The notes below the pieces were generated by a model. That model saw only the letters and a list, made by a program, of their open reading frames with translations. It was not told where the DNA came from and ran no database searches. This document shows positions 24,027 through 47,195 of a stretch of DNA of 64,000 bases, in pieces. Position 1 is the first letter of the stretch; the number at the start of each line of letters is the position of its first letter. The stretch comes from Bixzunavirus cane17. Taxonomy: Duplodnaviria > Heunggongvirae > Uroviricota > Caudoviricetes. The stretch is from IMG/VR virus record IMGVR_UViG_2974759174_000001. One strand, written 5' to 3'. The position numbers and the translations under genes are program-made.

Positions 24027-24737
24027 ATGTTCCGTTCCGCATCGGTCGTCGAGGCCGAGGCCGCTCAGCGCAAGCTGGACAAGCTGCGCGAGGATTGGCA
24101 ACGCACGGCCAACACCTGGTTTGACGGCTCTGCCGAATCGGTGGAGCGCCGCATCGCCCAGATCGATCGGGTGATCGCGTTCGCATCGCGCACCGCCCAG
24201 CGTTCCGGTGACCCGGCCAAGTTCTGCCTGGCCGCGCTGCCCACGCTCAAGGCCAACCGGGAAGAACTCGTCGAGCTGCACCGCCAGCTGGTCGGCGGGT
24301 CCTGGTACACCGGCCCGGAGGACCACGGGTTCCCCGTGAATCCGCACGACTATCCCAGCATGCGTGAGTGGATGGACGCGTCCAACATGCGCAGCTATAT
24401 CCAGGACGCGCACGAGAAGCACCCGCAAGAGGGCTGGGACCGCGCCAAGGGCGACTATGCCGTCGACGAGAGCTGGATGGACCCGCACGGGCCCATGCTC
24501 AACCACGCCGCGCTCGACTTCATCGCCGAGCAGGACACCACCGACCCCGGAGAGCTCAGAATCCGGGCTCAGCGCCTCGTGGCGGCACGAACTTCCACAT
24601 GGTCACGTGAGGCATCGGCCCGGGCAGTCCAGGCCTTTGTGAAGGCCGTGGAGGACAACAGTCCCCGACCGGTTCGGACAGCATCGGCTCCAGTACGGCA
24701 GCTGCCCGACTTCGAGGACCACCTCATGTTCAGTTGA
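24027..24737 (+). CDS. hypothetical protein (236 aa)
   Basis: ORF after hairpin-RBS. Confidence 0.75.
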   Translation: MFRSASVVEAEAAQRKLDKLREDWQRTANTWFDGSAESVERRIAQIDRVIAFASRTAQRSGDPAKFCLAALPTLKANREELVELHRQLVGGSWYTGPEDHGFPVNPHDYPSMREWMDASNMRSYIQDAHEKHPQEGWDRAKGDYAVDESWMDPHGPMLNHAALDFIAEQDTTDPGELRIRAQRLVAARTSTWSREASARAVQAFVKAVEDNSPRPVRTASAPVRQLPDFEDHLMFS

Positions 24738-25926: not shown

Positions 25927-27441
25927 ATGTGCTACGGCTGCCAGCAGGTCCTCGCTGACTTGCAGGACTACTACGAGGGCGCACGGATCACCGCCGCCGA
26001 GTGCCAGGTCCCGCCGGAGTGGCAGCGCTACTACGACCACATGAGCGGTCAGCCGGATCGCTCGCAGGCCGCGCACCTGATGATGCCGACCGAGCTGGTG
26101 CACCACTACCGCGAGTACGACCGTGACCCTGCCGACCCGAACTACCAGGTGCTCAAGAAGGTCATCCGGGAGCACGGCAATCAGATCCGTCAGCCGCTGG
26201 TAATCAACGCCGACGACACCCACGGCGTGCTAACCGAGGGCAATCACCGCGCGGCCATCGCGCGCGAGCTGGGCATCACTCATCTGCCAGTGCGGGTCCA
26301 GTACGGCCCCAAAGCCCAGGCCAACGAGGGCACCCCGGTGCCGCACCATCCTGCATTCAAGCAGTGGCTGGACGCTAACATCGGAGGACTGCAGCGTCAG
26401 GCTGGGGCCAATGGCGATATGCCTGCGGGCATCAGGATTCAGCAATTGCCCCGGATTCAACGCAAGCAACAGATTGAACCGTGGCTCGGGTTGAAAGAGA
26501 ATGGCGTTCACGCCTTGCATCCGGACGGAACTGAGTTGGGTCACTTGACCTGGTGGGAGCCGGATGGCGAAATTGCCGGAGTTGAAGTTCATCCCGATTA
26601 CCGTCGACGCGGCATTGCCGACGCGCTGTTAGACTACGCACGGTCAAACTTCAATCCGGAGGTGCATCATTCAGAGACTCTGACAGCTGATGGCAGAGCT
26701 TGGTCCAAGCAACGCCAGGCCGGTGTCGACCCGGAGATGACGTCGCTGGTGCACTTCACCAAGCCGCACATCCGCGACAAGATCATCCAGGAGCAGCGGT
26801 TCCAGCAGCATCCGCAGGGTGCTCACAACGACCATTCGTTCTTCACCACCTATGACAACCGTCACGACCCCGACTTCCGGGGCAAGTGGGGATACGGCGA
26901 TGTCGGCGTTGTCGTGGACGTCCCGTCGCACCTGGTGAAGCCGGACGGAGACTGGCCGCATCCCAAGTCGTTCATGGTGCATCGGGACGACTTGGCCGGA
27001 CTGCCGATCCGTTCGCTGGACCGACACGCCGCCGAGGACCGGTGGGACCACCCTGCCGAGGGTGAGGGCTTTGACGCCTGGCGCAACCGGCTGTGGGACG
27101 GTCTGGCCGAGGGTAAGACCTTCCACCCGAACGCCCCGGGCAGCCACTACCGGGCGATGAGCGACGAGGAGTTCAAGGCCGGTATTGCCAACGGCGGCTT
27201 TCACACCCTGCCGGGCAACAAGAGCCTGTTCGTCACCGACGACCCCGATCGGCTGGCCGGTGGCGCCTACGGCGGCAAGGGTGGCGGACACATCGTCGAG
27301 TTCGCCCCGCAGGAGACTCACGACGTCTCCAGCTACTACGTCAACGGCCTCAACGAGAAGGGCGTCAGTCACATCCCGCTCGACGCGGTGCGCCGGGTCT
27401 GGAGCTGGAACGGATCGGACCACCATCCGGCCCCCTACTGA
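25927..27441 (+). CDS. ParB-like nuclease (sulfiredoxin-fold) and GNAT acetyltransferase fusion protein with a 230-aa C-terminal domain of unknown function (504 aa)
   Basis: ParBc motif QPLVINADDTHGVLTEGNHRAAIARELGITHLPV; GNAT motif A VEVHPDYRRRGIADALLDYA. Confidence 0.8.
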   Translation: MCYGCQQVLADLQDYYEGARITAAECQVPPEWQRYYDHMSGQPDRSQAAHLMMPTELVHHYREYDRDPADPNYQVLKKVIREHGNQIRQPLVINADDTHGVLTEGNHRAAIARELGITHLPVRVQYGPKAQANEGTPVPHHPAFKQWLDANIGGLQRQAGANGDMPAGIRIQQLPRIQRKQQIEPWLGLKENGVHALHPDGTELGHLTWWEPDGEIAGVEVHPDYRRRGIADALLDYARSNFNPEVHHSETLTADGRAWSKQRQAGVDPEMTSLVHFTKPHIRDKIIQEQRFQQHPQGAHNDHSFFTTYDNRHDPDFRGKWGYGDVGVVVDVPSHLVKPDGDWPHPKSFMVHRDDLAGLPIRSLDRHAAEDRWDHPAEGEGFDAWRNRLWDGLAEGKTFHPNAPGSHYRAMSDEEFKAGIANGGFHTLPGNKSLFVTDDPDRLAGGAYGGKGGGHIVEFAPQETHDVSSYYVNGLNEKGVSHIPLDAVRRVWSWNGSDHHPAPY

Positions 27442-28017: not shown

Positions 28018-28091
28018 GCCGCAGTATGCAAACCGGAAAAGCAGCCGTACTCAAAATGCGGTGCGTGCGGGTTCGATCCCCGCCTGCGGTA
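28018..28091 (+). tRNA. tRNA, type I; the anticodon loop reads CTCAAAA (CAA), so the isotype is ambiguous
   Basis: acceptor GCCGCAG/CTGCGGT, T-arm GCGGG-TTCGATC-CCCGC. Confidence 0.5.
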
Positions 28092-28458
28092 CTTTGGCTC
28101 GTTGACGTTGCTGCGCCTGGGTGTTGGCGGCAGTGCAGGCCTTGCACCGGCACTTGATCTTGGGGTTGCGATACCTCCCCACAGTTCCATGCTGGTGATA
28201 TCCCATGTCGTTCGCCGTCTTCTCCTGATGACAGGGCTCGCAAAGCACCTGACACTTGGTCAGCTCAGCTTCTCGCCGTGCGGCGCTCCAAGACCAGATC
28301 TTGTGGTCGACTTTCTGAGTCGGGTCGATGTGATCAAGTCGGAGATCTTCTGTGGCACCGCACTCCACACAGGACTTCCCTGCGAAGTACTCGGTTCGCC
28401 GTCGCGCCACCCATTCACGTTGATACTGGCGCTGGGCTTCGGGGTCCTTGTAGGGCAC
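28051..28458 (-). CDS. HNH homing endonuclease (135 aa); its 3' end overlaps the last tRNA on the opposite strand
   Basis: CVECG ... LDHIDP ... KCQVLCEPCH HNH motif; GTG start with GGGATAGGA RBS. Confidence 0.8.
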   Translation of the reverse strand: MPYKDPEAQRQYQREWVARRRTEYFAGKSCVECGATEDLRLDHIDPTQKVDHKIWSWSAARREAELTKCQVLCEPCHQEKTANDMGYHQHGTVGRYRNPKIKCRCKACTAANTQAQQRQRAKVPQAGIEPARTAF

Positions 28459-28572: not shown

Positions 28573-31500
28573 ATGAGTGACTTTGGTCTGTTCGAGGCGG
28601 CAGCTGACGCCGAACAGGAGCCGAGCCGTAAGCACCGGATCGCCGCGCGCAAAATGGCCGCAGCGCTGGTCGACGTGCACGCCAAGTTCGGGTCGTTCAT
28701 GACCAACGCTGACGGCGTCGACAACTTCGAGGACCGGTTCTCGATGAGTCGTCGTGACATCGCCAAGGTCATGGTGGCCCACGGTGTGGGCGCCTATCCG
28801 GCGGTGATGCGTGAGGTCCACGGCAGCCTCAAGAGCGCTTGGTACGAGAAGCACGCTGAGTTCGACGAAGACGCGGGCACCACCGAGGAGTCCAACTTCG
28901 AGGACGGCGATGACTCCGGCTCGGACAAGCCCGGCGGCAAGGAGGCCCGGCGCCGCAAGGTCGCTGAGGACCGCGACGCCCCGGTACAGGCCATCCAGGA
29001 GACCTACGCCCCGTCGGGCGGCAACTTGGTCCCCGAGGGTGACTTCGACGGCTACCTGGACCGAGTTGACCAGGGTGGTCCTGAGAACGTCAGTGGCCAC
29101 GACTTCACCCCCGGCGGCGACTCGGGTGTGGACTCCCACCACCACGAGGCCCGCCAGCTGGTGGCCGACCTCTACACCGACTGGGCCGAGAGCAATGGCC
29201 TCCGTGTCGCGTCGATGAACACCCTCGACGTCTACGCGGCCAACGGCCTGCACGACGACGACTACTACCTGCTGGCCGCGATGATCCGCAAGGCCGAGTG
29301 CGAGTGCGAGGACGACGACAAGGAAGAGTCCGACTCGGACGATTCCGACTCGGACAGCGATAGTGACTCGGACAGCGACTCGGACGACGACGTCGACGAG
29401 GACGGCCCCGAGGGTCCGGACACCGACAGCGACGGCCCGCCTGCGGGTGCTGCCGAGAAGGGCGGCGAGATCTCCGACGAGGGCGGATCCGAGGACGACT
29501 CCAATCCGTTCGACGGCGAGGATGAGGCCCCCGAAGAGGATGGCGAGGACTTCCCGGCAGACCCCAATGGCCTGGAGGACGCCGGTCCTCAGGACGCGCC
29601 CGTCGACGACGGCAGCGCTGGTGGCCAGGAGTTCACCGTCCCCGAGCAGGCCCCTGAGCTGCCACAGGACGAGATGAGCCAGCTGCAGGACTCCGGTCCA
29701 CAGAGCGTGCCGCCGGAGGTTATCGACGACATCCTGGGCCTGCCTCCGGGCACCCTGGAGCAGCTCATCGCCGAGGAACTCGGTCAGGCTGGCGGCGGCA
29801 CTCCGCCGCAAGGGTCGCCTCCGCAGTTGGCCCGCCGACGTCGTCAGGCGGCAGAGGACCCCACCGGGGCCGCTGAGTCTGCCGACCAGGGTGACGCAGC
29901 GGCGGCAGCAGCCCCGGCAGCCGCAGGCGCGGGCAGTGCTGGAGCCATCCCGCCGCCTGGATCGGCCTCGGTCGCTCCTCCGCCCGCACCGGCGCCGCTG
30001 GAGAACCAGCCCGCCGAGGACGCACTGCTGGACACCGCCGTCCAGTCGGTCACCCAGATGATCGACCGCGAGACCCAGGAGTACCAGCAGATCATCGACC
30101 CGCTGACGCAGGCCCTGCAGGCGATCGAGTTCGCCCAGCAGGTCGAGCAGGCCGAGAATCCGCTCGACGTCACCCCGCCCGAGGGCACCGTCGATGCCAG
30201 CCCGGCAGCAGCCCCTGGTGGCGCCAACAGCCTGCAGCAGCAGGCCAGCCACGCGCGGCGCATGATGGCGCGCACGGCAGGCATCGCCAAGCAGTTCGGC
30301 CTGACCAAGCGGGCCGAGGCCATGATGATCCACGCGATGAGCCGCAAGCACTACGAGCACGTGGCCGAGGCCATCCGTATGGTGCCGCCGGAGATGCGCG
30401 GTCCGGTCGCCGAGCACATTGGCGCGATGTTCCGTGAGGACAACCCCCGGTTCAACCACGACCTGTGGATGCAGCACGTCGCCGGAAACAGGCGCGCCAA
30501 GAGCACCGACGACTTCCACACCTACAACGACCGTGGCGGCGAGCCGGGTGATTACGAGCGCAACAACCGGGGCTACAGCGAGATCGGCAACGGCATGGTG
30601 CAGGACTGGGAGACCGGCGAGGTCTACCCGCACCCCGGACGCACTGCGGGCCGCTGGAACACCCCGCCGGGCGGGACGCCGTGGCTGGATGCCACCCCAG
30701 CGAGCCGCCGCCCTTTCGTCGTTAGCCGTACCGCCGGGGAGACCTGGAAGAACACGCCCACCATGGACGCGTTCGAGTTCCCCGGCCACGGCGAGACGCC
30801 GGAGATCTCCGACAACATGAAGATCAACGACCTGCCGAAGACGACCAAGAACGCCGCCCTCGACGTCGAGGCCAAGGGCGTGCTCGACATGTTCGACGAC
30901 TTCACCAAGAAGCGCACCGACAAGGGCCTGAACCTGGGCCCTGCGGCCAACGTCGAGACGTTCAAGCAGGAGAAGGGCGACAAGGTCGGTCCCAAGGCTC
31001 TCGACAAACTGGAGAAGACCATCGAGGCCAACCGCAAGGCGGCGTCGTTCTTCACCCGCAAGGTGCCGGGTTGGACCTGGAACGACCACCTGGCCGGGTA
31101 TGTCACCGACGCCCGTCGGCAGTTCATCTGCTCGTGCGGCGCCGGTATTGAGACGCCGAGCTATACCATGTGCCACTGCGGCAAGATCTGGAACAGCTAC
31201 GCGATCGGCGACACCCAGCACCTGGCCAGCGACTCCGCCGAGCAGTTCATCACCCGCGAGATCCCGGTCCGCAAGGACGTGATCCTGGCCAACCGTCAGA
31301 TGGCCGATGGGCCGCTTACCGGCGACGAGAGGCTGCCTCAGGACGACCCTGAGAGTCTGGCCTATCAGGACCGCCAGGGGATCTCGAACGCCCCTGGGTG
31401 GGGCACCTGGCCGCAGCATCAGATGAAGATGATCGTCGACAGCCCGGAGTTCCGTGTCCCGGAGCACTACTTGCCGGGTCGTGACCGAATGAGCCACAAG

Positions 31501-31995
31501 CAGGCCTGGACCTCTGACAGTGGCTGGACCCCGCCGGACCAGCGCGACGTCGACTGGGTCGAGGACGAGGACCGCGAGGACGCCGATGGCCCGCAGGCCC
31601 CGGGCAAGACTGCCGGTGCCTTCGACACCTACATGAACGGCCTGTCGCAGCTGCCGGAGTTCGACGAGTGGGCCATGGGCAGTGATCATGTCCCGGCGCC
31701 GGAGTCCACACCTGCTCCTCCAGCACCAGCACCGGCTCCCTCGCTCAAGGACCGGGTCCGCCAGCATCTGATCGACCGGATGAACCGCACCGGTCCTCCC
31801 GGAGGCTTCGCCGGTGGCCGCTCGGCCAAGCTCAAGGACGAGGACTACATCGTCAAGTACACCGACGATGAAGATCCGGCGCGTCGGTCCGGCCCAAAGA
31901 AGCCTCCGTCCACCACGATCAAGGGTGGAGATCAGAAGTGGCACTCTCGCGGTGATGGAGGGAAGTTCACGTCCACTTCTCCATTCGGTGAGTGA
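28573..31995 (+). CDS. giant acidic low-complexity protein (1140 aa) with an (SD)n repeat, Pro/Ala-rich linkers and a C-terminal SWIM-type zinc finger
   Basis: DSDDSDSDSDSDSDSDSDDD at about 29330-29390; CSCGAGIETPSYTMCHCG fits CxCxnCxH; high GC3; the opposite-strand 1190-aa ORF is a shadow. Confidence 0.8.
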   Translation: MSDFGLFEAAADAEQEPSRKHRIAARKMAAALVDVHAKFGSFMTNADGVDNFEDRFSMSRRDIAKVMVAHGVGAYPAVMREVHGSLKSAWYEKHAEFDEDAGTTEESNFEDGDDSGSDKPGGKEARRRKVAEDRDAPVQAIQETYAPSGGNLVPEGDFDGYLDRVDQGGPENVSGHDFTPGGDSGVDSHHHEARQLVADLYTDWAESNGLRVASMNTLDVYAANGLHDDDYYLLAAMIRKAECECEDDDKEESDSDDSDSDSDSDSDSDSDDDVDEDGPEGPDTDSDGPPAGAAEKGGEISDEGGSEDDSNPFDGEDEAPEEDGEDFPADPNGLEDAGPQDAPVDDGSAGGQEFTVPEQAPELPQDEMSQLQDSGPQSVPPEVIDDILGLPPGTLEQLIAEELGQAGGGTPPQGSPPQLARRRRQAAEDPTGAAESADQGDAAAAAAPAAAGAGSAGAIPPPGSASVAPPPAPAPLENQPAEDALLDTAVQSVTQMIDRETQEYQQIIDPLTQALQAIEFAQQVEQAENPLDVTPPEGTVDASPAAAPGGANSLQQQASHARRMMARTAGIAKQFGLTKRAEAMMIHAMSRKHYEHVAEAIRMVPPEMRGPVAEHIGAMFREDNPRFNHDLWMQHVAGNRRAKSTDDFHTYNDRGGEPGDYERNNRGYSEIGNGMVQDWETGEVYPHPGRTAGRWNTPPGGTPWLDATPASRRPFVVSRTAGETWKNTPTMDAFEFPGHGETPEISDNMKINDLPKTTKNAALDVEAKGVLDMFDDFTKKRTDKGLNLGPAANVETFKQEKGDKVGPKALDKLEKTIEANRKAASFFTRKVPGWTWNDHLAGYVTDARRQFICSCGAGIETPSYTMCHCGKIWNSYAIGDTQHLASDSAEQFITREIPVRKDVILANRQMADGPLTGDERLPQDDPESLAYQDRQGISNAPGWGTWPQHQMKMIVDSPEFRVPEHYLPGRDRMSHKQAWTSDSGWTPPDQRDVDWVEDEDREDADGPQAPGKTAGAFDTYMNGLSQLPEFDEWAMGSDHVPAPESTPAPPAPAPAPSLKDRVRQHLIDRMNRTGPPGGFAGGRSAKLKDEDYIVKYTDDEDPARRSGPKKPPSTTIKGGDQKWHSRGDGGKFTSTSPFGE

Positions 31996-32002
31996 GGGAC
32001 GA

Positions 32003-32473
32003 ATGACAGCTGTCGAGGATCGCTTTTGGTCCAAGATCGATGCATCTGATGGATGTTGGCTCTGGACGGGGTCTCTCACGCACAACGGATACGGTCGATT
32101 CAAGGTTGACGGGAAGATGGTCCGAGCACATAGGTTCGCCTATCAGATGATGATCGGCGACATCCCTGAAGGCATGGAGCTGGACCATCGGCACACCTGT
32201 CCCAAGAGGTGCGTCAATCCAGAACACCTGCGACTTGTAACGCACAAACGCAATCAGGAGAACCGGTCAGGAGCCATGAGAAACAGCTCCACCGGCATTC
32301 AAGGGGTGTATTGGGACAAGAGGAACTCCTGCTGGCATGCGCGGGTGGGACATCACGGCAAGCGCGTCCACGTGGGGCGTTTCTTGACCTCGGAAGAGGC
32401 TGAGGCTGCCGTTGTTGCCAAGAGGCTGGAACTCTTCACTCATAACGACGCAGACCGGTTGGTGACCGTATGA
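32003..32473 (+). CDS. HNH endonuclease with C-terminal AP2 DNA-binding domain (156 aa)
   Basis: DGCWLWTGSLTHNGYGRF ... ELDHRHTCPKRCVNPEHLRLVTHKRNQ (HNH_3); GIQGVYWDKRNSCWHARVGHHGKRVHVGRF (AP2). Confidence 0.8.
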   Translation: MTAVEDRFWSKIDASDGCWLWTGSLTHNGYGRFKVDGKMVRAHRFAYQMMIGDIPEGMELDHRHTCPKRCVNPEHLRLVTHKRNQENRSGAMRNSSTGIQGVYWDKRNSCWHARVGHHGKRVHVGRFLTSEEAEAAVVAKRLELFTHNDADRLVTV

Positions 32474-32838
32474 GGGACTTGTGCTTCGGGTGTAAGGGCT
32501 TCAAGGAGATCGTCCACACCGAGGGTGGGACGGGCCATCCTTACTGCCAGGACTGCGCCCTGATGCAGCCGCCGACGTCTGACGAGTGGGCGCTGGTCTT
32601 GCTCAACGCCCCTTGGTCGCCGTACTCGGCCCCGTTCAAGCCGGGCGACAAGGTGGAGGCCCGCACTGCGGGTCAGATCTTCGACGGGGTCGGCGAAGTC
32701 GTCGACATGTCCGTCTCGCTGGAACACGGGGGAACTCCCGTGTATCCGACGTTCAAAGTGGTCCTGGCAGAGAAGGCACACGACTTGGCCCCGGATGAGG
32801 CTTGGTACACCGAATGCTGCCTTACACGAGTGGAGTGA
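32470..32838 (+). CDS. hypothetical zinc-ribbon protein (122 aa)
   Basis: CFGCKG ... CQDC; ATGA coupling. Confidence 0.65.
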   Translation: MRDLCFGCKGFKEIVHTEGGTGHPYCQDCALMQPPTSDEWALVLLNAPWSPYSAPFKPGDKVEARTAGQIFDGVGEVVDMSVSLEHGGTPVYPTFKVVLAEKAHDLAPDEAWYTECCLTRVE

Positions 32839-39633: not shown

Positions 39634-42600
39634 ATGGCGACGGTTTACACCGATTACGGTCCGGGCGAGATCATCGCATCGGAGACCGTGCGGGGCCGCA
39701 CTCAGTACCAGGTTCGAGTGGCCGGGTACGGGGAGTTCTGGCTGGACGCGACCAAGGTGGGCAGCGTCCACGAAGCGTGGGCCCCGCTGGACACCGACAA
39801 CTCGGTCAACCTTCCGTACGACCCCTCTCCGCAGTACCCCGCGCTGCCGGGCGACACCGAGAGCACCATTCAGCCGATCCACGAGATCGACGCCGACGAG
39901 CGGCTGTCCCCGGCGGACTCGATCACCTTCGAGGACCGCAGTGACGACGAGTCGATCATCGACGGCCACAGCGACAACTTCGCCAAGAGCGCTGCCTACG
40001 GCGACCCCACCACAAGCGAGCCCGGCTACAGCCACGGCCTGGAATGGGACGCCCCGGAGCGCAGCGAGTACGCGCACCCCGACTTCAAGCACTTTCACGA
40101 CGACCAGTACGAGGAAGAGGACCCGCTTCAGCAGGCCATGGCCGAAGAAGACGGCGCCCCCGACTGGCACCCCAGCGACCAGTACGGCGACCTGAACAAG
40201 CCGTACCCGGCGGACACCTGGCGCGGGTCGCATCCGGACCTGCCCGGCCACATGGCCAGCTCACACGAGGCCGCTGCCTTCCTCATCCCGCTCATGGGCG
40301 CCGGAGCCGGTGCTGCCGCTGGTGGAGCCGGGGCCGGTCTGGGCGGCGCGGTCGCCGGAGGCGTGGCCCGTGGCGTCGGCATGGGCGTGGCTCAGGACAT
40401 GCTCGGTGGTGGCGGCGACGGTCAGCAGGAGCCCGGCATGGTCGACCAGGCGATCGACACCATTCAGCCCGGACCCGGCTGGGGAGAGCTGCAGAAGGGC
40501 GCCGCTCTGGATCGGTGGCTGTCCGGACAGGACCAGGGGACCGGCACTGCTGCTGGACTCGGCGATCGCTACATCGACGTCACCGCTGCCGTCGACCCCA
40601 GCGACCCGATCTCGATGTTCCGGCACGACCCGGTCGCCTACATCAGCCGCACCGGCCACGTCCACGACGAGCCGGTCAGCGAAGAGATGCAGCACTACGG
40701 CCAGCTGGTCGAGGCCAACCCGCAGATCCGCGAGGCCGCGTGGAAGGACGTCCGGGCCAAGGCGATGCGTCTGCGCCGCGAGGGCCGGGTGCATGTCAAG
40801 GACGTCGCGCCGGACCGGATCTACGCCAGTGTCGACGGCGACCACGGCACCTATGAGGTGATGATCGCCAAGGGCGGTGCCTTCGGTGGCCTCGGTGGCG
40901 GTCACGCGATCAGCAACTGGCGTTGCGCGTGCGAGTGGGGCAAGTGGGCCTTCCAGCGCCGGATGACCTACGTCGGTCGTCTGTGCAGCCACGGCTACGC
41001 CGCTTACCTCACCATGCAGTCCGAGCACATGAAGGGCAAGCCGAGCCAGCGTCGTCGCTCGCCGTACCGCAAGCGTGCCGACGCGCTGCAGAACGGCCCG
41101 CAGCGCTTGGTGCCCGAGCTGGCCGTCAACGACCTCGACGACGCGCACACCTTCCTCGACGTCACCGAGGACGAGCGCAAGGAGACCGGGCCGGACGACA
41201 TCGTCAGCGAGAAGGACATCGTCCACTTCTCCCGGCTGATGGCCAAGTGCGACGCCGAACGTCTGCCCTACCCCCGGACCCTGGTGGCCTTCCTGGAGCG
41301 TTACGCCGACGACCAGTCCAAGGAGGACTGGAAGATCGAGGACACCGGCAAGGCGGGACCGGCGCTCGAAGAGCTGCGCGACTGGGCCGACACCTCGCAG
41401 GAGGACTACCTCGGCAACATGGAGGAGCGCGTCGAGGACATCCGCGACGCCGTCGACACCGCGCGCGAGCACGGCGTGGACGCCTCGCAGCTGACCGCCG
41501 GAGTGCACTTCCGCACCGCCGCCCCGAAGCCCGAGGTGACCTCGGATGGTTCGGGCGGCAAGATTCAGCAGACCCGGCAGTTCTCCCGTGACCCGGGAAC
41601 CTCGATCAGCGACTGGCTGGGTGTCGGCGGGACCCCCGGTGCCGCTGGCACCCGGTCCAACGGCGCAGGCCAGTCGATGAACCAGAGCCGTGACTCCGGA
41701 GGAGTTCAGGACACCGATTCCACCCAGGCCAAGTCGAGCGGCGGTGGCTTCGACCCGAACATGAACGACCGCAGCAACCGTCCGGTCTCCGAGGGCGGCG
41801 GTGCCACCAACGGCACTCCGGCAGGATGGTCGGCGGCTGACGCGGCCAGCCCGGGCAGCAACAACGGCCCGCATGGTGCGGCAGGCAGCGCGACCAACCC
41901 GACACCGGGCCAGCCGGGCAACAACACCCCGGCTGTGCCGGGTGCGGCCCCGAAGAACAACCTGGCCGGACCGGCAGGGACCAACACCCCCAGCGCTACC
42001 CCTCCCGGCGGCGGACAGATCGGCCAGGGTGAGTACCAGATCCAGTCCGGCGACACCCTGAGCGACATCGCGCAGCGTGCCGGATACGGCGGCGATTACA
42101 ACTCGCTGGCTCAGCAGAACAACATCGCCGACCCCGACAAGATCTTTGCGGGCGACACGATCAACATCGGCACCCCGGGCGGCGGAGCGACGACACCGGA
42201 CGTCGACCTCTCGGCAGCGACGCCGGGCGGCGGAGCGGATGCCAACAACACCGCCTCGGACTTCGCGGGCACGAGCACCAGCGGCGCGACCGACTCCATG
42301 GGGACGAACAACACCCCGACCGACAACGCGGCGGCGCAGACCACCACCGAGACCAACAAGACAGGCCGTCGTCGGCGCCAGGCGGCGCCGTCGGGCAGCT
42401 CGGCCACTCCGGCTCCGTCCACCACGCCGGATGACGAGGGTCTGGTCGACTCGATGGACAACCCGGCAGCGCCGACCGGAGGCACCCCGGCCAGCAACAC
42501 CGCGCTCAGCTCGCCGAACAACGATCTGGGTGACCCGAGCAGTGCGATCGACACCGGAGCGACCACCGGCGGTACGCCGGACGCCACCGGTGCGGGCACA

Positions 42601-43437
42601 GACGCCTCCACTCCGGGCGGGTTCGACCTGAGCCAGTTCAACGACACCATCAGCGGTGTCGGGGACGCGGTGAACACCGGCGTCGGTATCGCCAGCGACA
42701 TCGCCGGTGGTGTGGGTGACGTGGTCAGCGGCATCGGCTCGATCTTCAGCTCGCGTCAGGACTACGACGACTGGCACCGCTACGCCTACCCCGAGGCGGG
42801 CGACCACAAGCCGTTCGCCGGTTCGGGCCCGCAGGAGCCGCTGAAGTTCACCCCGTCGACCGAGTACGCCGACAAGGCCCGCCGGAAGATGGACGACGTC
42901 ACCGACCTGGACTACGACCACAGCAAGCCGGTCAATCCCCGACAGTCGTCGGCGGGCGGCGGCATCCAGCGCGCCGGACGTGGCGCGCGCCGGACGGTCG
43001 AGCCGGTGGTGGTCCGCGAGCAGCGTCCGGGTGGGCGTGTAGCCGCGCAGCAGCCCCACGTGCCGGACGACTTCGACCCACTGGCCCCGCGCACGGCGGC
43101 GAGCTTCGACGACCCGTACGACGCTCCTGATGTCGATCAGGCCGCAATGCGCATCGCGGCCAACACCGAGGGCGACATCGTCGCGGCCTTCCAGCGCAGC
43201 GCCGGAGCCGAAGCCATCATGTCCAGCTCGGGTGGCGGCGCAGCGAGCCAGTACGACGACTTCTCCTCGTCGCCTGCGGTGATCGCGGCCATGCAGCGCA
43301 CCGCCGGACGGCACTACTCGCCATCGGAGCAGGCCGAGCTGATCCGCGAGGGCGACCGTGGCGGGGCCGGAAACCTCGACGCGCTGGACCTGCGCGGAAC
43401 TCACTACGAGGCAGAGCACAGCGTCGGCCTGTGGTGA
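39634..43437 (+). CDS. giant virion-associated-like protein (1267 aa) with Gly/Ala-rich hydrophobic segment, SWIM zinc finger and LysM peptidoglycan-binding domain; candidate internal/ejection protein
   Basis: SWIM CACEWGKW ... RLCSHGYAA; LysM YQIQSGDTLSDIAQRAGYGGDYNSLAQQNNIADPDKIFAGDTINIG; GAGAGAAAGGAGAGLGGAVAGG. Confidence 0.8.
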   Translation: MATVYTDYGPGEIIASETVRGRTQYQVRVAGYGEFWLDATKVGSVHEAWAPLDTDNSVNLPYDPSPQYPALPGDTESTIQPIHEIDADERLSPADSITFEDRSDDESIIDGHSDNFAKSAAYGDPTTSEPGYSHGLEWDAPERSEYAHPDFKHFHDDQYEEEDPLQQAMAEEDGAPDWHPSDQYGDLNKPYPADTWRGSHPDLPGHMASSHEAAAFLIPLMGAGAGAAAGGAGAGLGGAVAGGVARGVGMGVAQDMLGGGGDGQQEPGMVDQAIDTIQPGPGWGELQKGAALDRWLSGQDQGTGTAAGLGDRYIDVTAAVDPSDPISMFRHDPVAYISRTGHVHDEPVSEEMQHYGQLVEANPQIREAAWKDVRAKAMRLRREGRVHVKDVAPDRIYASVDGDHGTYEVMIAKGGAFGGLGGGHAISNWRCACEWGKWAFQRRMTYVGRLCSHGYAAYLTMQSEHMKGKPSQRRRSPYRKRADALQNGPQRLVPELAVNDLDDAHTFLDVTEDERKETGPDDIVSEKDIVHFSRLMAKCDAERLPYPRTLVAFLERYADDQSKEDWKIEDTGKAGPALEELRDWADTSQEDYLGNMEERVEDIRDAVDTAREHGVDASQLTAGVHFRTAAPKPEVTSDGSGGKIQQTRQFSRDPGTSISDWLGVGGTPGAAGTRSNGAGQSMNQSRDSGGVQDTDSTQAKSSGGGFDPNMNDRSNRPVSEGGGATNGTPAGWSAADAASPGSNNGPHGAAGSATNPTPGQPGNNTPAVPGAAPKNNLAGPAGTNTPSATPPGGGQIGQGEYQIQSGDTLSDIAQRAGYGGDYNSLAQQNNIADPDKIFAGDTINIGTPGGGATTPDVDLSAATPGGGADANNTASDFAGTSTSGATDSMGTNNTPTDNAAAQTTTETNKTGRRRRQAAPSGSSATPAPSTTPDDEGLVDSMDNPAAPTGGTPASNTALSSPNNDLGDPSSAIDTGATTGGTPDATGAGTDASTPGGFDLSQFNDTISGVGDAVNTGVGIASDIAGGVGDVVSGIGSIFSSRQDYDDWHRYAYPEAGDHKPFAGSGPQEPLKFTPSTEYADKARRKMDDVTDLDYDHSKPVNPRQSSAGGGIQRAGRGARRTVEPVVVREQRPGGRVAAQQPHVPDDFDPLAPRTAASFDDPYDAPDVDQAAMRIAANTEGDIVAAFQRSAGAEAIMSSSGGGAASQYDDFSSSPAVIAAMQRTAGRHYSPSEQAELIREGDRGGAGNLDALDLRGTHYEAEHSVGLW

Positions 43438-43472: not shown

Positions 43473-46400
43473 GTGGCTACCAAGCACGTACTGCACGCCG
43501 AACGCCGGGATGTGACGACCCGGCCTACGGACAAGGCGATCCGGCGCAAGCTGAAGCACGCCGAGACTCTCGGCGACTTCAAGATGCGCCCGGGTTACCT
43601 CTACACCGTGGTCAGGGCCATCTCGGCGCGAGTTAACCAGAACTACGATGGTTGGCCATCAGACGAGCTAAAGAAGGCCGCGCACACCTTCATCGGAAAG
43701 CCGGTCTTCGTCAACCACGAGAACTACGACCCCAAGAAGGCCCGGGGAGTTGTTGTCGCGGCTCGTTACGTCGAGAACGGCAATGACAAGTTCATCGAGG
43801 TCATTCAGGAAATCGATGCCAAGCGTTTCCCAAAGCTGGCCCACGAGATCCGCACCGGCGGACTTGACTCTGTGTCGATGGGCGCCGAGGCCGGATTCAC
43901 GATCTGCTCGTACTGCGGCAACAAGGCGACCGATGTCCCCGAGATGTGCGACCACGTCCTGTACCACAAGGGCGAGCGTTTGCCACGGCACAACCGCAAG
44001 ACGGGCAAGGTCGAGGACGTTCTCGTCTACGAGTCCTGCCACAAGATCAGCTTCTTCGAGTTGAGCTACGTCTTCGACCCCGCCGACGAGACCGCTGTGG
44101 CTTCGCGCGTGCTGGTGGCCAACAACAAGACCGCCGGTGACTGCCCGCCCGGCCAGGACTGCACGGTCGGCGGCAATCCCGAGGACCAGATCACTCCGGA
44201 CTCGGCCAACAATCCGGTCAACGGCGGCAGCAACGACAGCAGCAGCACCGGCGGCGGTGCTGGAGCGAGCGCGGCCACCACGGTTTCTGGCGGCGAATTG
44301 GGCGAGCCTGGCGAGTCGGTGTCCGCCGGAGGAGGAGCCGGGGCCGACGGCATCATGGACGCCTCGCGCCCGCTCTATGACCAGCTCAAGACGATCGACC
44401 CGAACGCCGATATCGGCGGCTACCGCCCTGGCGGCGACGGCTACGACGAGCACAACAACGGCGCGCTCGACTACATGACCACCGATCCGGCAGTGGCCGA
44501 GCAGGTCAAGCAGAAGGCGTTCGAGAACGGCGCTCCGTACGTCATCTGGCAGCAGCAGCTGCACTACCCCGACGGCTCCACCAAAGCGATGGAGGACCGA
44601 GGTAGTCCGACGCAGAACCACATGGACCACGTGCACACGGGCCCGCTGACCGGACCGAAGGCTGCCCGGATCGAGCACACGGTTCTGGTTACCGCCGGGT
44701 TCGTCGATCCGGCTGTCGACTGCACCGTGTGCCGTCAGGCCCGGGTGGCCACCAAGTGCCACTACTGCGCCGGAGACGCCGAGGAGGGCTTCTCCTCGTG
44801 TGCCGCGCATCGGCCCATGGAAGAGAAGAAGTTCAGGGCCGCACAGCGAGAGGAGGCCGCGATGACATTCGAGGCTAGCGTGATTCGTGAGTTCCTCGGT
44901 GGCCCGCCACCCCCGGCCCGTCCGATGACCGGCATCGAGCACCAGCCTGGTCTCAATCCCGAGGACTATGTCGTGCCGTACAAGGGGCGCGGCTACCAGC
45001 CCGGCATGCCGGTAGACGTCTACCGCAACTTGCACTCGGAGAAGACCGGCACCGGTCTGTGGTCAGTCCGGCACAAGGGTCAGGTGGTCGGTCACGCCGA
45101 CTTCATCCACATGCCGCAGGGCAAGTTCTTCGTGGGCGAGGGCGGCAACGCCAAGGTTCAGGAGACCGGCCAGAAGAACGTGCACGCCGGTGCGCGTGGC
45201 GTGCTGGGCCCGGTCCCGCACGACCACGACCCGTCGCAGTACGTCGGCATCACCTACAACCCCAAGGCCGGAGACACCAGCTTCTACCAGCGCGAGACCA
45301 AGGAGCCGGTCTGGGAGGCCGATCATGTGCACCTGGGTCCCGACGGCAAGGCCTACACCCTCGGTCCGCGCAGCGGCATGGCCAGCGCCGACCAGAAGGT
45401 GTTCGAGGCCATGGTCCTGCAGGCCTACGGCGAGACCGAGGCGCCCACCCGTGTGGACACCCTGCGTGAAGAGGGCTCGGCGCCCGAGGACGACAACAAC
45501 GACTTCTACCACTACGTCGAGCCGCCCAAGGAGCTGCAGACCCCGGATCTGTCCGAGGCCGCACAGATCGACCGTCAGCAGGCCGAGAACCAGGGCGACA
45601 CGATGGACGTCGACGGCGACCCCGGACCGCACAGCGTGATGAACCAGGAGCCCGTCCCGGGCGCCGGTGGGGCCCCGCAGCAGCAGTTCATGACGCTGCA
45701 GATCCCGATCCCGCCACAGGGCCAGGCGCCCGGCGTGCCGATGCAGTCGTTCGCGCCGCCCGCGCCCGCCCCGGCGCCACCCATGCCTCCCCAGCAGATC
45801 GCCGCGTCGACGCTGGACTTCTTCGACCGGTACTACGGGCGCCGCGTGGCCAACTGGCTCGACGCCATTGAGGCCGGACGCGAGTTCACCGCCGAGGAGG
45901 CCTCGGACTACAGGCGGGAAGCAATGAAGCTGTCGACCCTGCAAAAAGCACCCTCAGCTTCAACAACAAGTAGGAACCCCATGAAAGGAACCGCCAACAT
46001 GGCACGCAGCAATCTCGCCTCGCGCGGCAAGGTGGTGACGGCTGGTCGTCGGCAGCACTTCGCCGAGGGTCCGTTGGTGGACTCGGGCGACCAGAGCCGT
46101 AACGACCAGGGCGAGCAGGAAGAGGCCTTCATCTCGACCACGCCGCCCGAGGAGTCCGTGGTGGCTCCCACCGACGACACCCCCAACATCTCGAACACCG
46201 AGCAGAACCTCGTCGCCCGCGTGAAGCGAGGCCGTGCCCAGCTCATGGCCGACGCGCAGAAGCTGGCTCAGCTCCAGGCTCAGCGCCAGCGCCGCATGGC
46301 CAACGAGGCCGGTGGCCCGGTGGCTACCGAGGTCAACCCGACGGTGAACTCGGGCCCCGGCGCCGAGGAGCTCACCGGCGATGACTTCGAGTCGGCCAAC

Positions 46401-47195
46401 CCCAACGACGGTGTCGTCGAGACTCAGCCCAAGGATGCGAGCCTGCATGCGTTCCGCACCTTCGACTCGTGGCTGAAGCGCAAGACGGGCAAGTCGGCGC
46501 GGTACCACACCAGCGCGACCATTCGCCGTGCGGCGGACGACTTCAGCCGTCAGTCGAACGTCTCGGTCCAGGCCCTGTTCCCGGCCCTGGGAATCGTGCT
46601 GCGAGAAGCACGAAAGAACGAAAAGGCAGCAGCCAACACCAAGGGAGCCAACATGCGCAAGCGTGCCGACGAGAAGCTGGAAGTCGCAGCTCCGGATGGA
46701 CGTGTTGACGTCGAGGCTCCGACCCGAGGAACGACTGACGCCGAGGCGCAGGCCTCGCAGTTCGACCTCAACGACTTCGGCAACAACGCCGGAGACGACA
46801 TCGCCGATCCGGATCTGAGCACCGATCAGAACTGGGCCCCCGGTGAGGCCAAGAAGTCCAGCAAGGTCAAGACGGCAGGTGGCGTTCTCGCCTTCCGTCT
46901 GGCGGAAGCCATGATCGCTGCTGGCATCGAGCCGAACACCGTCGAGCGGAAGTATGCGCTGGCGGCAGAGTTCGAAAACATGAATCGCGGTGCGGTCCAG
47001 GACCGTATCGCACTGTGCGAGCGCTTCGTGCCGGTTCTGGCCGCAGCTCGCCGACAGGTCGCCAGCGGTAGTACTCGCGGGGCCGCACTGAAGTCCCCCA
47101 TCCCTTCGGGCCTGGTGCAGGGCGCACAGCGCACCGCCGGACGCGCAGTGGTGGCGGCAAACGACCCCCGTAACGACGCTTCGCTCTTCATCTAA
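43473..47195 (+). CDS. giant fusion protein (1240 aa): N-terminal prohead-protease-like domain (S78/U35-like), M15-family zinc peptidase domain, zinc ribbons, Pro-rich and coiled-coil C-terminus
   Basis: VNHENYDPKKARGVVV ... GGLDSVSMGAEAGF (His/Ser protease-like); GGYRPGGDGYDEHNNGALDYMTTD ... DHVHTG (M15 SxHxxGxAxD ... DHxH); GTG with GAGGAGG RBS. Confidence 0.8.
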   Translation: MATKHVLHAERRDVTTRPTDKAIRRKLKHAETLGDFKMRPGYLYTVVRAISARVNQNYDGWPSDELKKAAHTFIGKPVFVNHENYDPKKARGVVVAARYVENGNDKFIEVIQEIDAKRFPKLAHEIRTGGLDSVSMGAEAGFTICSYCGNKATDVPEMCDHVLYHKGERLPRHNRKTGKVEDVLVYESCHKISFFELSYVFDPADETAVASRVLVANNKTAGDCPPGQDCTVGGNPEDQITPDSANNPVNGGSNDSSSTGGGAGASAATTVSGGELGEPGESVSAGGGAGADGIMDASRPLYDQLKTIDPNADIGGYRPGGDGYDEHNNGALDYMTTDPAVAEQVKQKAFENGAPYVIWQQQLHYPDGSTKAMEDRGSPTQNHMDHVHTGPLTGPKAARIEHTVLVTAGFVDPAVDCTVCRQARVATKCHYCAGDAEEGFSSCAAHRPMEEKKFRAAQREEAAMTFEASVIREFLGGPPPPARPMTGIEHQPGLNPEDYVVPYKGRGYQPGMPVDVYRNLHSEKTGTGLWSVRHKGQVVGHADFIHMPQGKFFVGEGGNAKVQETGQKNVHAGARGVLGPVPHDHDPSQYVGITYNPKAGDTSFYQRETKEPVWEADHVHLGPDGKAYTLGPRSGMASADQKVFEAMVLQAYGETEAPTRVDTLREEGSAPEDDNNDFYHYVEPPKELQTPDLSEAAQIDRQQAENQGDTMDVDGDPGPHSVMNQEPVPGAGGAPQQQFMTLQIPIPPQGQAPGVPMQSFAPPAPAPAPPMPPQQIAASTLDFFDRYYGRRVANWLDAIEAGREFTAEEASDYRREAMKLSTLQKAPSASTTSRNPMKGTANMARSNLASRGKVVTAGRRQHFAEGPLVDSGDQSRNDQGEQEEAFISTTPPEESVVAPTDDTPNISNTEQNLVARVKRGRAQLMADAQKLAQLQAQRQRRMANEAGGPVATEVNPTVNSGPGAEELTGDDFESANPNDGVVETQPKDASLHAFRTFDSWLKRKTGKSARYHTSATIRRAADDFSRQSNVSVQALFPALGIVLREARKNEKAAANTKGANMRKRADEKLEVAAPDGRVDVEAPTRGTTDAEAQASQFDLNDFGNNAGDDIADPDLSTDQNWAPGEAKKSSKVKTAGGVLAFRLAEAMIAAGIEPNTVERKYALAAEFENMNRGAVQDRIALCERFVPVLAAARRQVASGSTRGAALKSPIPSGLVQGAQRTAGRAVVAANDPRNDASLFI

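What the first reader, a model, noticed from the sequence alone, without database searches (positions are those of the whole stretch)
25927..27441. Three-domain ParB-nuclease / GNAT acetyltransferase / unknown-domain fusion
The N-terminal ParB/Srx-fold motif, GNHRAAIARELGITHLPV, is followed by a GNAT motif-A core, YRRRGIADALL, and then a 230-aa His- and Trp-rich C-terminal domain. ParB-like CTP-binding or nuclease domains fused to an acetyltransferase are not a standard phage module. The protein could be a modification or anti-defence enzyme, acetylating a nucleotide, a tRNA or a host protein. It sits right before the tRNA cluster.
Basis: partly seen in the sequence, partly recalled or inferred. 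Interest (0 to 1): 0.6.

Follow-up and report, generated by a model that had tools for sequence, protein, structure and literature searches.

The report
Modular phage effector polyprotein with ADP-ribosyltransferase domain
This mycobacteriophage gene encodes a string of four small, independently swappable enzyme modules (a ParB-like domain, a mini acetyltransferase, an unknown domain and a previously unrecognised ADP-ribosyltransferase-fold domain). The modules are separated by a short peptide motif that otherwise occurs only in a few head-associated proteins of the phage, so the protein is probably cut into separate host-targeting effectors inside the capsid.

Summary
The ORF is real: Cane17 gp71, 504 aa, window 25927-27441. 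Profile searches confirm a ParB/Srx N-terminal-type domain (8e-9 to solved ParB proteins) and a GNAT motif-A core above Pfam's cutoff. The GNAT segment is only about 100 aa.

Related cluster C phages gain, lose or swap these modules independently. The protein therefore fits the described class of phage "polyvalent proteins", so the ParB+GNAT fusion is not unprecedented.

The new observation is that every module junction carries R-[T/Q]-A-[G/A] or a near variant. In the whole Cane17 proteome (222 proteins) this motif occurs 12 times. All 12 are in gp71, gp76, gp78, gp85 and gp86, which lie next to the portal and capsid genes. About 5 hits are expected elsewhere and none is seen. gp86 carries a head-maturation-protease-like domain that is itself followed by KTAG.

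Best reading: a capsid-packaged effector polyprotein cut by the prohead protease. This is inferred, not shown.

The parts
25927..27441 (+). gp71 CDS, 504 aa, 56.8 kDa: polyvalent-type effector polyprotein
   Evidence: ORF; annotation; 203 cluster C phage records hold related DNA, but only 7 hold at least 80% of this architecture.
25927..25983 (+). N-terminal segment before the first junction (aa 1-19, MCYGCQQVLADLQDYYEGA); only its first 13 aa (MCYGCQQVLADLQ) are the conserved leader, and P0007 keeps just MCYGC
   Evidence: Invariant aa 1-13 in all cluster C variants, whichever module follows. A role as capsid-targeting or pro-peptide is inference only.
25984..25998 (+). Junction J1: R-I-T-A-A (aa 20-24), a degenerate form of the junction motif
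   Evidence: Module A of Essence and I3 is inserted or deleted at this point. ARITAAE recurs at junctions in P0004, P0005 and P0006.
26074..26328 (+). ParB/Srx N-terminal-type domain core (aa 50-134), with the EGNHRAAIA arginine motif
   Evidence: Family profile against PDB: ParB family protein 7bnk 8e-9, sulfiredoxin 6ky4 5.5e-6, ParB 6t1f 2e-5, Noc and Spo0J about 1e-4. PHROG ParB-like hits.
26395..26406 (+). Junction J2: R-Q-A-G (aa 157-160)
   Evidence: This is the left edge of the segment missing in I3.
26407..26712 (+). Minimal GNAT-like module (aa 161-262), motif A R-R-R-G-I-A and conserved HHS..LT.DG.AW
   Evidence: Pfam Acetyltransf_1 26.0 bits (cutoff 20.7) and Acetyltransf_13 24.6 bits (cutoff 22.8), over aa 207-250 only. 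Profile against PDB hits Naa/RimI-type N-acetyltransferases at about 5e-4, motif A only. Homologous mini-modules occur in P0005, P0006, P0008, P0009 and P0011.
26713..26724 (+). Junction J3: R-Q-A-G (aa 263-266)
   Evidence: The same peptide as J2 is encoded with 4 synonymous differences in 5 codons.
26725..27021 (+). Module C1 (aa 267-365), fold unknown; conserved VHFT, FFTTY, DF.GKYGYG, VVV.VP...K.D.DWPH..S.MV
   Evidence: Found as a discrete unit in cluster C variants and in P0025 and P0045. No Pfam or PDB match. hhalign against C2 is not significant.
27022..27033 (+). Junction J4: R-H-A-A (aa 366-369), degenerate motif; I3-type proteins have RHARTAG here
   Evidence: The C-terminal module is swapped exactly at this point.
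27034..27438 (+). Module C2 (aa 370-504): ADP-ribosyltransferase-fold domain of a family absent from Pfam. Invariant R409, E415, R442; near-invariant S412, E477
43473..47195 (+). gp86 (1240 aa): N-terminal head-maturation-protease-like domain (aa 61-211, window 43653-44105), followed by KTAG (aa 219-222, window 44127-44138); RTAG at aa 1220
   Evidence: phrog_18299 'head maturation protease' 1.1e-18. Standalone homologues of about 221 aa end where KTAG sits, and homologues carry RTAS, RTAA, TAG or TAS in the same column.
39634..43437 (+). gp85 (1267 aa): LysM and transglycosylase-like protein with four motif copies (aa 627, 915, 1153, 1222)
28573..31995 (+). gp76 (1140 aa): unknown large acidic protein with four R[TQ]A[GA] copies (aa 424, 567, 690, 719) plus KTAG at aa 1012
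32470..32838 (+). gp78 (122 aa, DUF7245), immediately upstream of the portal gene, one RTAG (aa 65)

Best explanation
gp71 is a small phage polyvalent protein. It consists of a conserved N-terminal leader followed by four autonomous modules of about 100-135 aa: a ParB/Srx-type domain (a likely NTP-dependent nuclease or nucleotide-binding module), a minimal GNAT acetyltransferase-like module, an uncharacterised module C1, and an ADP-ribosyltransferase-fold module C2.

I propose that it is made with the head proteins and loaded into the procapsid. There the head-maturation protease carried at the N-terminus of gp86 would cut it at the R-[T/Q]-A-[G/A]-type junctions. The resulting 12-16 kDa effectors would be ejected with the DNA and would modify host targets at the very start of infection: NAD+-dependent ADP-ribosylation by C2, possibly acetylation by the GNAT module, and DNA or nucleotide action by ParB/Srx. 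The junction motif would also make modules exchangeable between phages, because any module flanked by it is released correctly.

Shown here: the domain identities of ParB/Srx, GNAT motif A and the C2 fold; modularity; the exclusive distribution of the motif.

Inferred: cleavage, packaging, catalytic competence and targets.
For: Domain identities:
- ParB/Srx.
- GNAT motif A above Pfam cutoff.

Class context: proteins carrying C2 also carry ART-PolyVal, Arr-ms, SLT, NUDIX, GNAT and LPD23 domains. ParB-like domains sit next to C2 in three distant proteins.

Modularity: the Essence, I3, Dandelion, Rabinovish and Tonenili versions add, drop or swap modules exactly at the junctions.

Motif:
- J2 and J3 encode the same peptide with different codons.
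- R[TQ]A[GA] occurs 12 times in 48,532 aa, all in gp71, gp76, gp78, gp85 and gp86. Expected 0.64 there and 5.2 elsewhere. P about 1e-9 for the 10 hits outside gp71 and P = 0.006 for zero hits elsewhere.
- The 23 permuted-order control motifs show no such skew, and RTAG is the top non-repetitive tetrapeptide of these proteins.
- K-variants fall in the same proteins.

Protease link: gp86 has a head-maturation-protease-like N-terminal domain. The motif sits exactly at its C-terminal boundary, and this is conserved in homologues of 50-70% identity.

Precedent: head-packaged ARTs such as T4 Alt, and polyvalent proteins encoded next to head genes (PMC5512222, PMC9503650). A standalone C2 protein lies directly after a terminase gene.
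Against: - No virion proteomics or N-terminal data for any cluster C phage were found, so packaging and cleavage are untested.
- The protease assignment of gp86 rests on one PHROG family name. Pfam, NCBIfam and PDB searches did not confirm it.
- Two of the four gp71 junctions (J1 RITAA, J4 RHAA) only approximate the strict motif.
- gp71 lies upstream of the head block, after a long run of small genes that look early or unknown, and is separated from gp76 by tRNA genes. Its expression time is unknown.
- The GNAT module covers only about 100 aa, and C2 lacks the classical STS and ExE motifs, so either could be catalytically inactive or do something else.
- The major capsid protein and the portal (outside its intein) lack the motif.
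Confidence: 0.5

Rival explanations
1. gp71 is a cytoplasmic, unprocessed multi-domain enzyme made during infection. It is not packaged, and its domains act together on one substrate, for example modifying DNA, a nucleotide or a host protein. The junction peptides are simply flexible linkers.
For: The gene lies at the end of a block of small non-structural-looking genes, before the tRNAs. No peptidase domain lies in gp71 itself. Two junctions deviate from the strict motif.
Against: Simple linkers would not explain why the same tetrapeptide is confined to five proteins around the head genes and avoided in the other 217 proteins. They would also not explain why it marks the end of the protease-like domain of gp86 in divergent homologues. 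Modules occur in any order and combination, which argues against an obligate multi-domain machine.
Confidence: 0.25
2. The junction motif is a footprint of recombination: conserved linker DNA that promotes in-frame module exchange. It would have no role as a peptide signal.
For: Module gain, loss and swap breakpoints coincide with the motif. Longer shared junction strings exist, such as GTLRTAGANGD and EGARITAAE.
Against: J2 and J3 differ at 4 synonymous positions in 5 codons, and no DNA repeat joins the junctions. The I3-type deletion leaves RQAGANGD|GVDPE, which is not the product of simple recombination between the two RQAG copies. The motif also occurs in gp76, gp78, gp85 and gp86 in unrelated contexts and is depleted elsewhere.
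Confidence: 0.15
3. gp71 works on tRNA or RNA. C2 would be a Tpt1/KptA-like 2'-phosphotransferase cooperating with the phage RNA ligase and kinase and the neighbouring tRNA genes.
Confidence: 0.05
4. gp71 is a partition-type or CTP-switch ParB involved in phage genome segregation or packaging.
For: The best solved-structure matches are chromosomal ParB, Noc and Spo0J N-terminal domains.
Against: Only the roughly 85-aa N-terminal domain is present. There is no HTH or dimerisation domain. The GERRxR CTP motif is replaced by EGNHR. No ParA gene is annotated in the genome.
Confidence: 0.02

Closest known systems
Polyvalent proteins of phages and conjugative elements (Iyer, Burroughs, Anand, de Souza, Aravind 2017, PMC5512222)
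   Same: Several unrelated effector domains in one phage polypeptide. ParB-superfamily, GNAT and ART domains are among the commonest components. Extensive domain shuffling. Genes near head genes. Proposed delivery with the DNA and proposed processing into separate units.
   Different: gp71 is very small (504 aa, four mini-modules). It has no zincin-like MPTase or other peptidase domain, which that paper proposes as the processing enzyme. Its ParB domain does not match the DdrB-ParB Pfam model. Its C2 ART-fold family and C1 are not among the Pfam-described families. Processing is proposed here to be done in trans by the prohead protease at a recurring junction motif, a feature the paper does not mention (one search found no 'linker', and 'cleavage' or 'processed' only in connection with MPTase and DdrB).
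T4 Alt and internal proteins IPI-III (head-packaged, cut by the prohead protease gp21 at L/I-x-E; my own knowledge, and for Alt)
   Same: An ART delivered from the capsid. A short protease motif shared by head-internal proteins. An N-terminal leader removed during maturation.
   Different: T4 proteins are single-domain and lose only a short targeting peptide. Here the motif lies between every module, so one precursor would yield four effectors. The motif is R-[T/Q]-A-[G/A], which resembles herpesvirus assemblin A|S sites more than L-x-E (own knowledge). Nothing is experimentally shown for Cane17.
phiKZ-like jumbo phage inner-body and head proteins cut at multiple S/A/G-x-E sites by gp175 (Thomas and Black; my own knowledge, not checked here)
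   Same: Extensive multi-site processing of head-internal proteins by one morphogenetic protease, recognised by a short motif.
   Different: Different motif, different phage lineage, and no evidence there for a cassette-like array of enzymatic effector modules.
R-S-E clade ART toxins (TreX, TreTu, Tre1, cholera, LT and pertussis toxins) and minimal ART folds (CC0527/DUF952, Tpt1 C-lobe)
   Different: Sequence identity is 4-16%. No STS motif and no ExE (the local sequence is G-L-N-E). There is a second invariant Arg (DPDR) and a GGAYG loop. The substrate is unknown. No Pfam model matches.
Minimal GNATs (COG2388 / At1g77540-type, Pfam Acetyltransf_CG; my own knowledge) and RimI/Naa-type N-acetyltransferases
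   Same: Motif A R-x-x-G-x-A and the beta4-alpha3 region. The best solved matches are Naa/RimI enzymes. Size is about 100 aa, as in minimal GNATs.
   Different: Only about 30-55 residues align to any model. The N-terminal arm and beta6-beta7 of canonical GNATs are not detectable. Pfam Acetyltransf_CG is not hit by gp71 itself.
MuF-fused polymorphic toxins of temperate phages (cited in PMC9503650)
   Same: Head-associated delivery of swappable toxin or effector domains, including ARTs.
   Different: gp71 has no MuF domain. The anchor, if any, would be the short leader and the protease motif.

Membership tests
Polyvalent proteins (Iyer et al. 2017) | Two or more unrelated effector or catalytic domains in one polypeptide of a phage or conjugative element | tested here: met
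   ParB/Srx, GNAT motif A, ART-fold C2 and C1, all in a phage genome.
Polyvalent proteins (Iyer et al. 2017) | Domains drawn from the class repertoire, with mosaic shuffling between relatives | tested here: met
   Relatives combine the same and other modules in different orders. C2-bearing proteins carry ART-PolyVal, LPD23, SLT and NUDIX.
Polyvalent proteins (Iyer et al. 2017) | Own processing peptidase (zincin-like MPTase), frequent but not universal | tested here: not met
   No peptidase family in gp71 in Pfam, PHROG, NCBIfam or PADLOC scans.
Polyvalent proteins (Iyer et al. 2017) | Packaged in the virion and delivered with the DNA | not testable with these tools
   Indirect only: the motif is shared with head-block proteins. 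No proteomics found.
ParB/Srx superfamily, N-terminal domain | Profile-level similarity to the ParB N-terminal domain, including the conserved Arg of the G-x-x-R motif | tested here: met
   8e-9 to 7bnk, 5.5e-6 to sulfiredoxin. EGNHRAAIA aligns to GERRWRAS. G and R are invariant in the family.
Partition/CTPase ParB | GERRxR CTP-binding motif, HTH DNA-binding domain, dimerisation domain, ParA partner | tested here: not met
   The motif is EGNHR. The domain ends at about aa 135 and is followed by a junction. No ParA is annotated.
DdrB-like ParB (Pfam DdrB-ParB) | Match to the DdrB-ParB model | tested here: not met
   Not among Pfam hits, even at E<=5.
GNAT acetyltransferases | Motif A (Q/R-x-x-G-x-G/A) with a score above the curated threshold | tested here: met
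   R-R-R-G-I-A. Acetyltransf_1 26.0 bits (cutoff 20.7) and Acetyltransf_13 24.6 bits (cutoff 22.8).
GNAT acetyltransferases | Complete GNAT fold (about 150-160 aa, beta1-beta7 with motifs D-A-B) | tested here: inconclusive
   The module is about 100 aa and only 30-55 residues align. The full-length AlphaFold model had too low confidence (pLDDT 44).
ADP-ribosyltransferase superfamily (module C2) | ART split beta-sheet fold | tested here: met
ADP-ribosyltransferase superfamily (module C2) | Catalytic triad R-S-E or H-Y-E in the canonical strands | tested here: inconclusive
   Invariant R409 on the first strand, near-invariant S412 and E477. There is no STS or ExE, and no residue-level superposition was available.
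ADP-ribosyltransferase superfamily (module C2) | NAD+ binding and ADP-ribose transfer | not testable with these tools
   Needs biochemistry.
Prohead-protease substrates (T4 Alt/IP-like head-internal proteins) | Short cleavage motif shared specifically among head-associated proteins | tested here: met
   12 of 12 R[TQ]A[GA] sites lie in gp71, gp76, gp78, gp85 and gp86. Permutation controls are negative. The motif marks the boundary of the protease-like domain.
Prohead-protease substrates (T4 Alt/IP-like head-internal proteins) | Demonstrated cleavage and presence in mature heads | not testable with these tools
   No data found.

The most novel reading that the evidence does not exclude
Cluster C mycobacteriophages use a plug-and-play effector cassette system. 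Small enzymatic modules (ART-fold, mini-GNAT, ParB/Srx and others) are strung together behind a common leader and separated by the recognition motif of the phage's own head-maturation protease (R/K-T/Q-A-G/A/S). Any newly acquired module is then automatically packaged, released as a free effector and injected. The motif is counter-selected in the rest of the proteome. Distant C2-bearing polyvalent proteins carry other lineage-specific repeated junction peptides, which hints that protease-site-delimited effector polyproteins may be general.
Probability: 0.4. Interest if true: 0.75.

Novelty: new variant of a known kind. Interest (0 to 1): 0.6.

Why it matters
If the reading is right, it gives three things.

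1. An unrecognised ADP-ribosyltransferase-fold family found in about 50 sequence clusters, many of them inside phage or mobile-element giant proteins. This is a candidate source of new host-takeover or anti-defence activities in mycobacteria.

2. A concrete, testable answer to how polyvalent phage proteins that lack their own peptidase are resolved into working units: trans-cleavage by the prohead protease at a four-residue motif.

3. A simple sequence rule, R/K-T/Q-A-G/A/S, that predicts the set of capsid-internal, injected proteins of Bxz1-like phages (gp71, gp76, gp78, gp85, gp86). Such a rule is useful for engineering therapeutic mycobacteriophages to deliver cargo proteins.

If the reading is wrong, the locus is still a clear example of domain-level mosaicism in a known protein class.

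Tried and rejected
- AlphaFold of full-length gp71 with a 12-sequence alignment gave pLDDT 44 and was not used for fold inference.
- phmmer of gp71 against PDB found nothing.
- A C1 profile against PDB found nothing.
- hhalign of C1 against C2 was not significant (probability 0.1%). The idea that C1 is a diverged H-type ART rests only on a shared pattern and on a weak BFVD hit to a C1-bearing protein (Stubby).
- Module A of Essence and I3 looks like an R-S-ExE ART by eye (YRG...HWT...EQE), but Pfam and PDB profile searches did not confirm it.
- A C2 profile against PDB sequences found nothing. Only structure comparison worked.
- A profile search of the 5.8-billion-sequence database with the C2 alignment returned only 3 proteins.
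- The afdb50 fold library was unavailable.
- The large neighbours of the homologues P0008 and P0009 are not gp76 homologues, so there is no conserved gp71-gp76 pair.
- The protease domain of gp86 could not be confirmed with Pfam, NCBIfam or PDB.
- Literature searches for cluster C (Bxz1, I3, Bixzunavirus) virion proteomics or capsid protease sites found nothing usable.
- The partition-ParB and tRNA-repair readings were considered and rejected; see the rival explanations.
Full report
**Identity of the locus.** The window is the first 64 kb of Mycobacterium phage Cane17, a Bixzunavirus (Bxz1-like myovirus of cluster C). The ORF at 25927-27441 (+) is gp71, 504 aa, annotated "hypothetical protein". 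The identical gene in Blubba is annotated "ParB-like nuclease domain". A tRNA-Ser gene starts 140 bp downstream.

**Domain checks.**
- ParB/Srx. Pfam does not report ParBc. PHROG ParB-like families match aa 52-128 at 6e-6 to 7e-4. A profile of eight family members hits solved ParB, Noc, Spo0J and sulfiredoxin chains at 8e-9 to 1e-4, with EGNHRAAIA aligned on the GERRWRA arginine motif. Only the N-terminal ParB/Srx domain is present. There is no HTH, no dimerisation domain and no GERR CTP motif, so this is a ParB/Srx-superfamily module and not a partition protein.
- GNAT. Acetyltransf_1 scores 26.0 bits against a cutoff of 20.7, and several other GNAT models match, but only over aa 200-253. A family profile hits Naa/RimI-type enzymes at about 5e-4, again only around motif A. 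The whole module is about 100 aa. From my own knowledge it resembles minimal GNATs of the COG2388 type. Its completeness and activity are untested.

**The C-terminus is two modules.** Alignment with the versions in Essence (680 aa) and I3 (575 aa) shows three things:
- an extra 176-aa N-terminal module in both;
- precise absence of the GNAT segment in I3;
- replacement of the last 135 aa in I3 by unrelated sequence.

An exhaustive HMMER search with aa 266-504 found 55 proteins that match either aa 266-368 (C1, few proteins) or aa 369-502 (C2, about 50 proteins, up to 3020 aa). C2-bearing proteins also contain ART-PolyVal, Arr-ms, SLT, NUDIX, GNAT and LPD23 domains. In three distant proteins a ParB-like domain lies just upstream of C2.

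Foldseek agrees. TreX is an R-S-ExE enzyme that ADP-ribosylates FtsZ (PMC11606950).

C2 has an invariant Arg (R409) on the first core strand, a near-invariant Ser (S412), a second invariant Arg (R442) and a near-invariant Glu (E477). It has no STS or ExE motif. The fold is therefore established, while chemistry and target are not. C1 has no detectable relative in Pfam or PDB. Its resemblance to C2 is not statistically supported.

**Class.** The eleven homologues found in the 5.8-billion-protein database are all mosaics of these and other modules. This architecture, together with the ParB/GNAT/ART repertoire, matches the polyvalent proteins described by Iyer et al. 2017. Those authors propose that such proteins are packaged, injected and proteolytically resolved, usually by an embedded zincin-like peptidase (PMC5512222). 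A later survey stresses head-packaged ARTs encoded next to head genes (PMC9503650). gp71 has no peptidase domain.

**Junction motif.** Every module boundary in gp71 and its relatives carries [R/H]-[T/Q/I/H/A]-A-[G/A/S]:
- gp71: RITAA, RQAG, RQAG, RHAA
- relatives: RTAG, RTAA, HTAA, RAAS, RTAS

J2 and J3 encode LQRQAG and KQRQAG with four synonymous differences in five codons, and no DNA repeat links the junctions. The conservation is therefore at the peptide level.

I took the strict form R[TQ]A[GA] from these junctions and scanned all 222 annotated Cane17 proteins, 48,532 aa in total; coordinates came. There are 12 occurrences, and all are in five proteins encoded between 25.9 and 47.2 kb: gp71 (2), gp76 (4), gp78 (1), gp85 (4) and gp86 (1). 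Composition predicts 0.64 hits in these proteins and 5.2 in the other 217, which have none. The probability is about 1e-9 for the ten hits outside gp71 and 0.006 for zero hits elsewhere.

Controls and extensions:
- All 23 permutations of the same residue classes give 0-4 hits in the five proteins and 2-9 elsewhere.
- RTAG is the most over-represented non-repetitive tetrapeptide of the five proteins, 6 against 0; KTAG is 3 against 0.
- With Lys allowed at the first position there are 17 hits. Fifteen are in the same five proteins and one lies inside the portal intein.

**Link to a protease.**
- gp85 has LysM and transglycosylase-like regions.
- gp87 is a cement protein, gp88 the major capsid protein and gp79 the portal.
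- gp86 aa 61-211 match PHROG 18299, "head maturation protease", at 1e-18.
- Homologues of this domain occur as standalone proteins of about 221 aa on phage-sized contigs.
- gp86 continues past that point with NKTAG (aa 218-222).
- Homologues of 50-70% identity have KRTAS, NRTAA, TAG or TAS in the same column.
- The PHROG alignment of gp86 also breaks at aa 218.

This is what one expects if the motif is the protease's own release site. The protease assignment itself could not be confirmed with Pfam, NCBIfam or PDB.

**Interpretation.** The best-supported model is that gp71 is a capsid-directed effector polyprotein. Its modules would be released by the gp86 protease at the junction motif and delivered with the DNA, by analogy with T4 Alt and the T4 internal proteins. 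Predicted products:
- leader, 2.6 kDa
- ParB/Srx, 15.6 kDa
- mini-GNAT, 11.9 kDa
- C1, 11.9 kDa
- C2, 14.9 kDa

Cleavage, packaging, enzymatic activity and targets are all inferred. The rivals are an unprocessed cytoplasmic enzyme, recombination linkers, a Tpt1-like RNA function and a partition ParB. They are weighed in the rival explanations; none of them explains the proteome-wide distribution of the motif.

**Novelty.** Four things appear to be new:
1. the C2 ART-fold family, which has no Pfam model;
2. the compact cassette architecture with module-by-module presence or absence among cluster C phages (only 7 of 203 related records carry at least 80% of the Cane17 arrangement);
3. the junction motif shared exclusively with head-block proteins;
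4. the implied trans-processing by the prohead protease.

I rate this a new variant of a known kind, with interest 0.6.

Noticed in passing
window 32842-36537 (gp79 portal), about 34354-35424: The 1231-aa portal protein contains an intein. Hint, Intein_splicing and LAGLIDADG homing-endonuclease domains lie at about aa 505-861, and the portal PHROG alignment is split around them. A KTAA motif copy lies inside the intein.
   Followed up: partly
window 28054-28458 (- strand): An unannotated 135-aa minus-strand ORF lies in the 480-bp gap between tRNA-Leu(caa) and gp76. It matches Pfam HNH endonuclease (21.9 bits, cutoff 21.4). Its 3' end overlaps the tRNA gene.
   Followed up: partly
window 43473-47195 (gp86): gp86 fuses a head-maturation-protease-like domain with an embedded Cys/His zinc-ribbon-like insert (CSxCG...CxH) to about 1000 further residues. 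These include an L5 gp82-like domain (aa 511-628) and a region similar to tape-measure or endolysin proteins.
   Followed up: partly
window 28573-31995 (gp76): This 1140-aa protein of unknown function has a long acidic stretch with (SD)n repeats and a Cys-rich segment (CSCG...CHCG). It carries five copies of the junction motif.
   Followed up: partly
window 24027-24737 (gp66), aa 217-220: The only R[TQ]A[GAS] occurrence outside the five head-block proteins is RTAS, 20 residues from the C-terminus of gp66, five genes upstream of gp71. No Pfam family matches.
   Followed up: no
Distant C2-bearing proteins P0019, P0027, P0038, P0042, P0043, P0047, P0051, P0055, P0064: In these proteins C2 is flanked on both sides by other repeated peptides, for example KGWAPGPNAGWRRLD, PRSLGAAAPEG, FQSSA[QR]GAAV and GGGGRxPxxP. 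This suggests lineage-specific junction motifs in other polyvalent proteins.
   Followed up: no
Cane17 genome 101064-104003 (- strand), outside the window (L008): A 979-aa gene is annotated 'DarB-like antirestriction', a protein type that is capsid-packaged in phage P1. It has no R[TQ]A[GA] motif.
   Followed up: no
L007 (Mycolicibacter kumamotonensis LFOE01000001, prophage-like region): The 975-aa homologue P0008 lies in a prophage-like region with holin, GP17, ADP-ribosylglycohydrolase and histone-deacetylase-family genes, and an intein-bearing large gene. Two neighbouring proteins carry RTAA or RQAS close to their termini.
   Followed up: partly
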